UHGV virus genome: UHGV-0869939
Length of the DNA stretch: 25,864 bases
Direction: 5' to 3' (one strand)
Source: a virus
Position 1 is the first letter of the stretch. Each line of letters starts with the position of its first letter. The notes under the pieces were generated by a model. That model was not told the origin of the DNA, did no database searches, and worked only from the letters and a program-made list of their open reading frames with translations. This document shows, in pieces, positions 25,375 through 25,864 of this stretch. Position numbers and translations under genes: made by a program.

Positions 25375-25686
25375 ATGACGGTCTCAACCGAAGTTGACCA
25401 CAACGAATACACAGGTAACGGCGTTACGACATCATTTCCGTATACCTTCCGTATTTTCAAAAAATCCGACCTGGTTGTTCAGGTGTCTGACCTTAACGGT
25501 AACGTTACAAAACTAGTGCTGGATGCTGGTTATACGGTAACAGGGGCGGGAACTTATAGTGGCGGTGCAGTGGTTCTTCCGTCGCCGCTTGCTGCTGGCT
25601 GGCGAATCACGATAGAGCGTGTGCTTGATGTGGTGCAGGAGACTGATCTTCGCAATCAGGGAAAATTTTTCCCCGAAGTTCCATGA
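25375..25686 (+). CDS. Tail fibre protein, N-terminal domain (T7 gp17-like), frame interrupted at 25684
   Basis: YTGNGVTTSFPYTFRIFKKSDLVVQV ... GWRITIERVLDVVQETDL parallels the T7 gp17 N-terminus (LDGSNRDFNIPFEYLARKFVVV ... TTIELRRVTSTTDRL); GGAG RBS; stop after 103 codons while the homology continues in the +1 frame. Confidence 0.65.
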   Translation: MTVSTEVDHNEYTGNGVTTSFPYTFRIFKKSDLVVQVSDLNGNVTKLVLDAGYTVTGAGTYSGGAVVLPSPLAAGWRITIERVLDVVQETDLRNQGKFFPEVP

Positions 25687-25864
25687 GGATGCATTTGACT
25701 ACCTGACGATGCTGATCCAGCGATGTTTTGGGTGGTTCAGACGTGCATTGATGAAACCATCTTTGCTTGCAAAATATTACGATGCAAAGCAAAACAGAAT
25801 ATCTAACCTTGCCGATCCATACACAGTGCGTGGTCGGCGTCTCTCAAGGCACACAGGGGATAGG
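25679..25864 (+). pseudogene. Continuation of the tail-fibre reading frame (+1 relative to 25375..25686), open to the window end
   Basis: 62 codons with no stop and no RBS-supported start; DAKQNRISNLADP resembles the T7 gp17 DARGRRIVNLANA segment. Either a frameshift (pseudogene or sequencing error) or a split tail-fibre gene. Confidence 0.4.

What the first reader, a model, noticed from the sequence alone, without database searches (positions are those of the whole stretch)
25375..25864. Tail-fibre gene interrupted after its conserved N-terminal virion-attachment domain
The T7 gp17-like N-terminal domain stops at 25684-25686 inside a run-rich sequence (GGAAAATTTTTCCCCGAAG). The +1 frame then stays open for 62 codons to the window end and carries the next conserved block (NRISNLADP). 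The phage may therefore have a defective fibre (cryptic prophage), a sequencing error, or a split adaptor/fibre arrangement like the separate gp17-N-like adaptors of some podoviruses.
Basis: partly seen in the sequence, partly recalled or inferred. Interest (0 to 1): 0.5.

Follow-up and report, generated by a model that had tools for sequence, protein, structure and literature searches.

The report
Sequencing-error frameshift at adaptor-tipped contig end
The "interrupted" phage tailspike gene differs from many intact copies by one extra C, 140 bases before an untrimmed Roche 454 sequencing adaptor at the end of the contig, so it is most likely a sequencing/assembly artefact and not biology.

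Summary
The ORF 25375..25686 (103 aa), its TGA stop and the open +1 frame after it are all real. Over 25300-25820 the window is base-for-base identical to an intact 820-aa tailspike gene of E. coli 4/0, apart from one extra C at 25681/25682. None of 214 complete E. coli genomes that carry this site has the extra C. The exact 29-mer is absent from three large public contig collections, and the 103-aa product is not on record anywhere. Homology stops at 25820. The last 44 bases are an 11-nt barcode-like tag plus the reverse complement of the Roche 454 Rapid Library adaptor B, so the window is the untrimmed end of a pyrosequencing contig. A second frameshift private to the window (T5->T4 at 24820-24823) lies about 1 kb upstream, whereas 17 kb of virion genes align without a gap to a relative. 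In epsilon15, phiV10 and about 120 other phages the same N-terminal module is read in a single frame across this position, so there is no natural split gene. The module is the epsilon15 gp20 / Carin-1 Dpo31 D1 type; no similarity to T7 gp17 was detected by sequence. Verdict: a 454 homopolymer-length miscall (probability about 0.8). A real recent pseudogene is the main rival (about 0.17). Low interest.

The parts
25375..25686 (+). Truncated reading frame (103 aa + TGA). It is the 5' part of an epsilon15-type tailspike gene and encodes the virion-proximal D1 beta-sandwich plus linker.
   Evidence: ORF list and translation. 100% identical to the start of the 820-aa gene of E. coli 4/0 apart from one base. 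Matches PDB Dpo31 residues 1-182 at E 6e-31. 73% identical to epsilon15 tailspike.
25681..25682 (+). CC where every relative has a single C. This one-base insertion causes the frameshift.
   Evidence: Pairwise alignment. All 20 fetched loci that cover the site lack the extra base. 0 of 214 complete E. coli genomes have it. The exact 29-mer is absent from genome, viral and metagenome contig collections, while the version without the extra C occurs in 17 viral contigs.
25682..25819 (+). Continuation of the same tailspike gene in the next frame (46 codons, HEDAFDYLTMLIQ...NRISNLADP). This is the start of the coiled-coil D2 region.
   Evidence: Translation. 100% DNA identity to the intact homologue up to 25820. 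Aligned to Dpo31 residues 104-150.
25821..25831 (+). 11-nt barcode-like tag (ACACAGTGCGT) between genomic sequence and the constant adaptor. Probably the reverse complement of a library multiplex identifier.
   Evidence: Not homologous to any tailspike gene. Two other adaptor-contaminated E. coli records carry a different sequence at this position. The identity of the tag could not be confirmed in the literature.
25832..25864 (+). Untrimmed Roche 454 Rapid Library adaptor B, reverse complement (GGTCGGCGTCTCTCAAGGCACACAGGGGATAGG). It marks the contig end.
   Evidence: 25836-25864 is the exact reverse complement of the published '454 B-Rapid' primer CCTATCCCCTGTGTGCCTTGAGAGACGHC (PMC4034615). 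The 20-mer CCTATCCCCTGTGTGCCTTG occurs in 304 papers; the one read in detail lists it as a 454 FLX and Titanium adaptor B. The same 32-34 nt occur in only 2 of 5426 E. coli genomes, at unrelated intergenic sites.
24820..24823 (+). T4 run where the closest relative has T5 and five others have CTTTT. This is a second one-base frameshift private to the window. It truncates ORF 24173..24853 (226 aa, against 242 aa in relatives).
   Evidence: blastn of the window against 24 loci. 0 of 96 complete E. coli genomes that carry the site share it. Reference gene length from annotation (729 nt).

Best explanation
The window is the end of a contig assembled from Roche 454 (pyrosequencing) Rapid Library reads whose 3' adaptor was not trimmed. 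It lies in an epsilon15-like podovirus prophage of E. coli.

The consensus of the last few hundred bases probably rests on very few reads, possibly one read that runs into the adaptor. In the late, noisy flows of that read a single C was called as CC. That gives an apparent +1 insertion and a TGA stop three bases later.

The true gene is most likely one uninterrupted tailspike gene, as in relatives. In E. coli 4/0 that gene has an N-terminal virion-binding module, a K5-lyase beta-helix and a C-terminal S74 chaperone. The T5->T4 change 1 kb upstream is an error of the same kind.

Shown: the adaptor, the uniqueness of both indels, the intact relatives, and the gap-free remainder of the window. 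Inferred: low read coverage at the contig end, and miscalling as the cause.
For: 1. The terminal 29 nt are the exact reverse complement of the published 454 B-Rapid adaptor. Homology to tailspike genes ends 44 nt before the window end.
2. Over 25300-25820 the window differs from the intact gene of E. coli 4/0 by the extra C alone. Sixteen further genomes score the same 99.6%.
3. The extra C is found nowhere else. It is in 0 of 214 complete E. coli genomes and in no genome, viral or metagenome contig. The 103-aa product is not on record among 153 billion gene positions.
4. The only other indel private to the window is also a homopolymer-length change (T5->T4 at 24820-24823). It also breaks a gene and lies about 1.0 kb from the adaptor.
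5. Positions 4978-22158, which hold the portal, capsid and the 823-, 915- and 1129-aa virion genes, align to E. coli CUVET20-PYO2 at 99.3% with 0 gaps. All the large ORFs are intact.
6. 454 errors are predominantly indels that depend on homopolymer context (PMC3852801).
7. Isolated phages read through the site in one frame: epsilon15, phiV10, HEMP4, ZX5 and others, 120 of 132 records.
Against: - No reads or quality values are available, so low coverage and miscalling are inferred, not shown.
- A 1->2 overcall is a less typical 454 consensus error than a miscount in a long run.
- The second frameshift is about 1 kb from the end, beyond the reach of a single adaptor-bearing read.
- Frameshifted tailspikes are annotated in this prophage family in finished genomes, for example CUVET20-PYO2. 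A real mutation is therefore possible.
Confidence: 0.8

Rival explanations
1. A real, very recent one-base insertion has made the tailspike a pseudogene in this strain's prophage. The prophage would then produce spike-less, non-infective particles or be on its way to decay.
For: The stop is present in the sequence as given. A second frameshifted gene lies nearby. A tailspike annotated as 'frameshifted' exists in a related prophage of a finished genome.
Against: There are no substitutions over 520 nt relative to intact alleles, and every other large virion gene is intact. That does not look like a decaying prophage. Neither private indel is seen in any other genome or contig. Both are homopolymer-length changes close to an untrimmed 454 adaptor.
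Confidence: 0.17
2. Programmed +1 ribosomal frameshifting at CCA-UGA, as in prfB, restores a full-length tailspike with His104 replaced by Pro.
For: An in-frame UGA directly follows the inserted base. A +1 shift on CCA_U would rejoin the tailspike frame (read directly from the sequence).
Against: CCA to CAU is not a slippery re-pairing. No Shine-Dalgarno-like element lies upstream of the site. The arrangement is not conserved in any homologue: 0 of 214 genomes, and all phages read in one frame.
Confidence: 0.01
3. A natural split into a short virion-adaptor gene and a separately initiated receptor-binding gene.
For: The stop falls near the D1/D2 domain boundary seen in the Dpo31 structure. Many short 'partial' proteins of this module exist in databases.
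Against: Most named hits are labelled 'partial', which fits contig-end truncation. The DNA on both sides of the stop is identical to single-ORF genes. The next in-frame ATG (25709) has no ribosome-binding site. In complete genomes the site lies under genes annotated as tail fiber proteins (10 rows listed), and isolated phages read through it in one frame.
Confidence: 0.01

Closest known systems
Untrimmed Roche 454 Rapid Library adaptor B at a contig end, with pyrosequencing homopolymer indel errors
   Same: Exact 29-nt match to the published B-Rapid sequence, in reverse complement at the 3' end and preceded by a variable barcode-like tag. Both private differences from relatives are single-base changes in run length.
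   Different: The C1->C2 overcall is in a very short run, not a long homopolymer. The tag could not be matched to a published identifier list.
Tailspike gp20 of Salmonella phage epsilon15 and the phiV10 tail fibre (N-terminal virion-binding module)
   Same: 73% and 72% amino-acid identity over the repaired 148 residues. The virion-gene neighbourhood matches that annotated in related E. coli prophages: portal, capsid, capsid staple protein gp10 and a T7 gp14-family core protein. In those relatives the tailspike is followed by holins and a GH19 lysin.
   Different: The receptor-binding part is not in the window. In the DNA-identical E. coli 4/0 allele it is a K5 lyase (PDB 2x3h, E 6e-185), not the epsilon15 enzyme.
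Tailspike Dpo31 of marine podovirus Carin-1 (PDB 28lx, 28mg, 8ck1), domains D1-D2
   Same: Residues 1-178 align at E 6e-31. D1 is a beta-sandwich attached to the virion base, followed by a linker and a coiled coil.
   Different: Different host and catalytic domain. Similarity is confined to the N-terminal module.
T7 gp17 N-terminal domain (Pfam PF03906)
   Same: The same general role is expected: an N-terminal part that fixes a trimeric fibre or spike to a podovirus tail. This rests on general knowledge.
   Different: No sequence similarity was detected with Pfam, or with a single sequence or profile against the PDB. No T7 is among the 25 listed phage hits or the top organism genera at E<=1e-5.

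Membership tests
454 Rapid Library adaptor contamination at a contig end | Exact match to the adaptor B sequence | tested here: met
   25836-25864 is the reverse complement of CCTATCCCCTGTGTGCCTTGAGAGACGHC with H=C (PMC4034615). The 20-mer core is in 304 papers; the one read lists it as 454 FLX and Titanium adaptor B.
454 Rapid Library adaptor contamination at a contig end | Located at the very end of the sequence, in the orientation expected at the 3' end of a read, with genomic homology ending just before it | tested here: met
   Homology to 18 tailspike loci ends at 25820-25824. The adaptor runs to the last base, 25864.
454 Rapid Library adaptor contamination at a contig end | The sequence is not a natural genomic element | tested here: met
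   Found in only 2 of 5426 E. coli genomes, at two unrelated intergenic sites. In one of them it sits head to head with its own reverse complement.
Pyrosequencing indel error | The difference is a single-base run-length change, is private to this assembly, and the flanks are identical to relatives | tested here: met
   C->CC at 25681 and T5->T4 at 24820. They are shared by 0 of 214 and 0 of 96 genomes respectively.
Pyrosequencing indel error | Low coverage or low quality at the site in the raw reads | not testable with these tools
   No reads or quality values are available.
T7 gp17 N-terminal domain (PF03906) | Significant match to the family profile or to T7 gp17 itself | tested here: not met
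   No Pfam hit at E<=0.01 for the 103-aa ORF, the repaired 148 aa or the N-terminus of the 820-aa homologue. No T7 gp17 chain at E<=10 with the sequence or a profile.
T7 gp17 N-terminal domain (PF03906) | Same fold | tested here: inconclusive
   The AlphaFold2 model of the 103 aa had pLDDT 58 and pTM 0.33. Foldseek against the PDB gave no match with E<=0.001.
epsilon15 gp20 / Dpo31-type tailspike N-terminal module | Sequence homology over the whole N-terminal module | tested here: met
   Dpo31 at E 6e-31 over residues 1-178. epsilon15 at 73% and phiV10 at 72% over residues 1-148. Tail PHROGs match residues 1-162..231.
Split adaptor / fibre gene pair | Homologues with a stop at the same place and a separately initiated downstream gene | tested here: not met
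   0 of 214 E. coli genomes have it. 120 of 132 phage records cover the site in one piece. No ribosome-binding site precedes ATG 25709.
Programmed +1 frameshift (prfB type) | Slippery P-site codon, upstream Shine-Dalgarno stimulator, and conservation of the shifted arrangement | tested here: not met
   An in-frame UGA is present, but CCA is not slippery onto CAU, there is no SD-like element, and no homologue has the arrangement.
Decaying (cryptic) prophage | Several inactivated genes spread over the element | tested here: not met
   All large virion ORFs are intact. 17 kb aligns without gaps to a relative. The only two private frameshifts are in the last 1.05 kb.

The most novel reading that the evidence does not exclude
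The extra C is real, and the prophage either makes a free 103-aa D1 'anchor' fragment that occupies tailspike sites on the tail, or restores the full spike by +1 recoding at CCA-UGA. That would be a switchable tailspike.
Probability: 0.02. Interest if true: 0.45.

Novelty: not a real feature. Interest (0 to 1): 0.05.

Why it matters
It matters mainly as a quality flag. The last 44 bases of this record are adaptor and should be trimmed. The two frameshifts in the final 1 kb should not be annotated as pseudogenes or used to call the prophage defective. The same adaptor sequence sits inside two RefSeq 'complete' E. coli chromosomes, strains S42 and S43. If the frameshift were real, it would be an ordinary recent pseudogene in a common epsilon15-like prophage.

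Tried and rejected
- Insertion sequence at the window end: rejected. The 44-nt tail matches no IS. It is found only at two unrelated intergenic sites in E. coli S42 and S43, and it matches the 454 adaptor.
- Source contig or any other carrier of the extra C: the exact 29-mer was scanned in genome contigs, viral contigs and metagenome contigs, and the 103-aa product was looked up exactly. Nothing was found.
- The 11-nt tag as a published multiplex identifier: a literature search returned only unrelated primers.
- Similarity to T7 gp17: Pfam, a PDB sequence search and a PDB profile search were all negative.
- Fold test: the AlphaFold2 model from a 38-sequence alignment was of low confidence (pLDDT 58), so the Foldseek hits are meaningless.
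- The search for homologous proteins returned only short partial proteins (60-180 aa). It was of no use for a length distribution, but it does show that draft contigs often end in this gene.
- Indels at 25182/25183 and 24918/24920: these are non-coding polymorphisms shared with other loci, not private to the window.
- Promoter and terminator scan of 24800-25864: nothing that bears on the question.

Full report
**What is in the sequence.** An ATG at 25375, with GGAG 8 nt upstream, opens a 103-codon frame that ends at TGA 25684-25686. The next frame is then open to the last base and reads ...HEDAFDYLTMLIQRCFGWFRRALMKPSLLAKYYDAKQNRISNLADP YTVRGRRLSRHTGDR.

**The lesion.** A megablast of 25300-25864 against 5426 complete E. 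coli genomes found the region in 530 of them. The listed best hits lie under genes annotated 'tail fiber domain-containing protein'. In E. coli 4/0 the gene is a single 2463-nt ORF of 820 aa, followed by two holins, a GH19 lysin and a DUF2514 protein, and then the chromosomal yfgI gene.

The pairwise alignment shows that 25300-25820 is identical to that gene at every base except one extra C: GTTCATGAG has become GTTCCATGAG at 25681/25682. The nearby AAAA, TTTTT and CCCC runs have the same lengths in both sequences. So the frameshift is a C1->C2 change just downstream of the run-rich string, not inside it.

**The window end is a sequencing adaptor.** Homology to every tailspike locus stops at 25820-25824. 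The remaining 44 nt are ACACAGTGCGT followed by GGTCGGCGTCTCTCAAGGCACACAGGGGATAGG.

- The last 29 nt are the exact reverse complement of the '454 B-Rapid' primer CCTATCCCCTGTGTGCCTTGAGAGACGHC published in PMC4034615.
- Its 20-nt core occurs in 304 papers. The one read in detail lists it as 454 FLX and Titanium adaptor B.
- The same 32-34 nt occur in only two of the 5426 E. coli genomes, strains S43 and S42. They lie at unrelated intergenic sites in the O-antigen cluster and the ETT2 region, next to genes flagged 'partial in the middle of a contig'. In S42 the sequence is joined head to head with its own reverse complement.

This is library DNA, not an insertion sequence or phage DNA. The 11 nt in front of the constant part differ between the three cases, as a library barcode would. 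I could not confirm the tag from the literature. The window is therefore the untrimmed end of a contig built from 454 reads, and 15 of the 62 'open codons' are adaptor.

**Is the extra C seen anywhere else?** No.

- A 62-nt query centred on it matched 214 complete genomes, none above 98.4% identity. Every one lacks the base.
- The exact 29-mer with CC is absent from 185,579 species-representative genomes, from IMG/VR and from the JGI metagenome contigs. The 28-mer with a single C is present in 17 viral contigs.
- The 103-aa product is not on record among 153 billion gene positions.
- All 20 fetched loci that cover the site lack the base.

**Other indels in the window.** I aligned the whole window to 24 fetched loci with blastn.

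- Positions 4978-22158 cover the portal, the capsid, the capsid staple protein gp10, a T7 gp14-family core protein and the 823-, 915- and 1129-aa virion proteins. They align to E. coli CUVET20-PYO2 at 99.3% with zero gaps, and all the large ORFs are intact.
- The indels at 25182/25183 and 24918/24920 are non-coding polymorphisms shared with several loci.
- Apart from the extra C, only one indel is private to the window. At 24820-24823 it has T4 where the closest relative has T5 and five others have CTTTT. This shifts ORF 24173..24853 to 226 aa, against 242 aa in relatives. None of the 96 complete genomes that carry the site shares it.

Both private indels are single-base run-length changes. 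Both break genes, and both lie in the last 1.05 kb before the adaptor. If the two were placed at random in 25.8 kb, the chance of both falling in that stretch would be about 0.002. That figure is my own rough, post-hoc arithmetic.

454 errors are dominated by indels that depend on homopolymer context (PMC3852801). A read that runs into its 3' adaptor is in its late, noisiest flows; that last point rests on general knowledge of the platform.

**What the gene is.** The neighbourhood is an epsilon15-like podovirus prophage. Related prophages are inserted beside yfgI.

- The repaired 148-residue N-terminus is 97% identical to Escherichia phage HEMP4, 95% to vB_EcoP_ZX5, 73% to the epsilon15 tailspike and 72% to the phiV10 tail fibre.
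- In 120 of 132 phage records it aligns in one piece across the frameshift position.
- In the PDB it matches only the tailspike Dpo31 of podovirus Carin-1, residues 1-182, at E 6e-31. The structure paper describes D1 as a beta-sandwich (residues 8-87) attached to the virion base. About 23 linker residues connect it to the coiled-coil D2 (PMC13317679).
- The apparent stop thus falls at the D1/D2 junction, but inside the conserved sequence module. Tail PHROGs match that module over residues 1 to about 162-231.
- The rest of the E. coli 4/0 protein is a K5 lyase beta-helix (PDB 2x3h, E 6e-185; 9vvr) with a Peptidase_S74 chaperone at residues 675-735. The window ends before this part, so its specificity is unknown.

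**T7 gp17 likeness.** This was not supported by sequence. There was no Pfam hit at E<=0.01, and no T7 gp17 chain at E<=10 with a sequence or a profile. An AlphaFold2 model of the 103 aa was too poor (pLDDT 58) for the fold search to mean anything.

**Rival readings.**

- A real recent pseudogene cannot be excluded without reads. A related finished genome has its own tailspike annotated as frameshifted. However, zero substitutions over 520 nt, an otherwise intact virion module, two unique run-length indels and an adaptor 140 nt away all favour error. I put it at about 0.17.
- A natural split gene is refuted. No homologue has the stop, the flanking DNA is identical to single-ORF genes, and the next in-frame ATG (25709) has no ribosome-binding site.
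- A prfB-like +1 recoding at CCA-UGA would rejoin the frame on paper. But the codon is not slippery, there is no upstream Shine-Dalgarno element, and nothing is conserved.

**Verdict.** The interruption is most probably a pyrosequencing miscall at the low-coverage, adaptor-tipped end of a contig (confidence 0.8). It is not a real feature and the interest is low. The useful outcomes are to trim 25821-25864, and not to call the tailspike or ORF 24173..24853 pseudogenes without resequencing.

Noticed in passing
window 24820-24823 (ORF 24173..24853, + strand): A second frameshift private to the window: T4 where relatives have T5 or CTTTT. It shortens a 242-aa hypothetical protein to 226 aa. None of the 96 E. 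coli genomes with the site shares it.
   Followed up: yes
window 25201-25216, upstream of minus-strand gene 24922..25179: A near-consensus LexA (SOS) box, CTGTATATTTATACAG, lies 22 nt upstream of the start of an 85-aa gene. By eye, that gene's product resembles the C-terminal part of the AntA-domain antirepressor at 23117..23773(-). It may be an SOS-controlled small antirepressor. There were 3 CTGT-N8-ACAG matches in the window against 0.4 expected, and no Pfam family.
   Followed up: partly
window 22162..22674 (-) and 22661..22987 (-): A YafO-family toxin-like ORF with an overlapping upstream small ORF, possibly an antitoxin, lies between the virion genes and the tailspike. The Pfam match is below the cut-off (E 9.5e-4). 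RefSeq names the homologue a YafO family toxin.
   Followed up: partly
L002 5001-5034 (E. coli S43, NZ_CP010237.1) and L003 5001-5058 (E. coli S42, NZ_CP010236.1): The same 454 Rapid Library adaptor sequence is embedded inside two RefSeq 'complete' chromosomes. In S42 it is an adaptor joined to its own reverse complement. It sits next to genes flagged partial or frameshifted.
   Followed up: partly
window 5180..5256 (-): A tRNA-Arg(TCT) gene lies between the terminase and portal genes. It is also annotated in the related prophages.
   Followed up: no
proteins P0001-P0077: Database relatives of the N-terminal module returned by the word-indexed search were all 60-180 aa, and most named ones are labelled 'partial'. 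Draft assemblies very often break inside this gene, presumably because the N-module is shared between prophages while the distal part varies.
   Followed up: no
L022 28022-30647 (E. coli CUVET20-PYO2): The related prophage in this finished genome carries an endosialidase-type tailspike annotated as 'frameshifted'. I did not check whether that is real or an assembly error.
   Followed up: no
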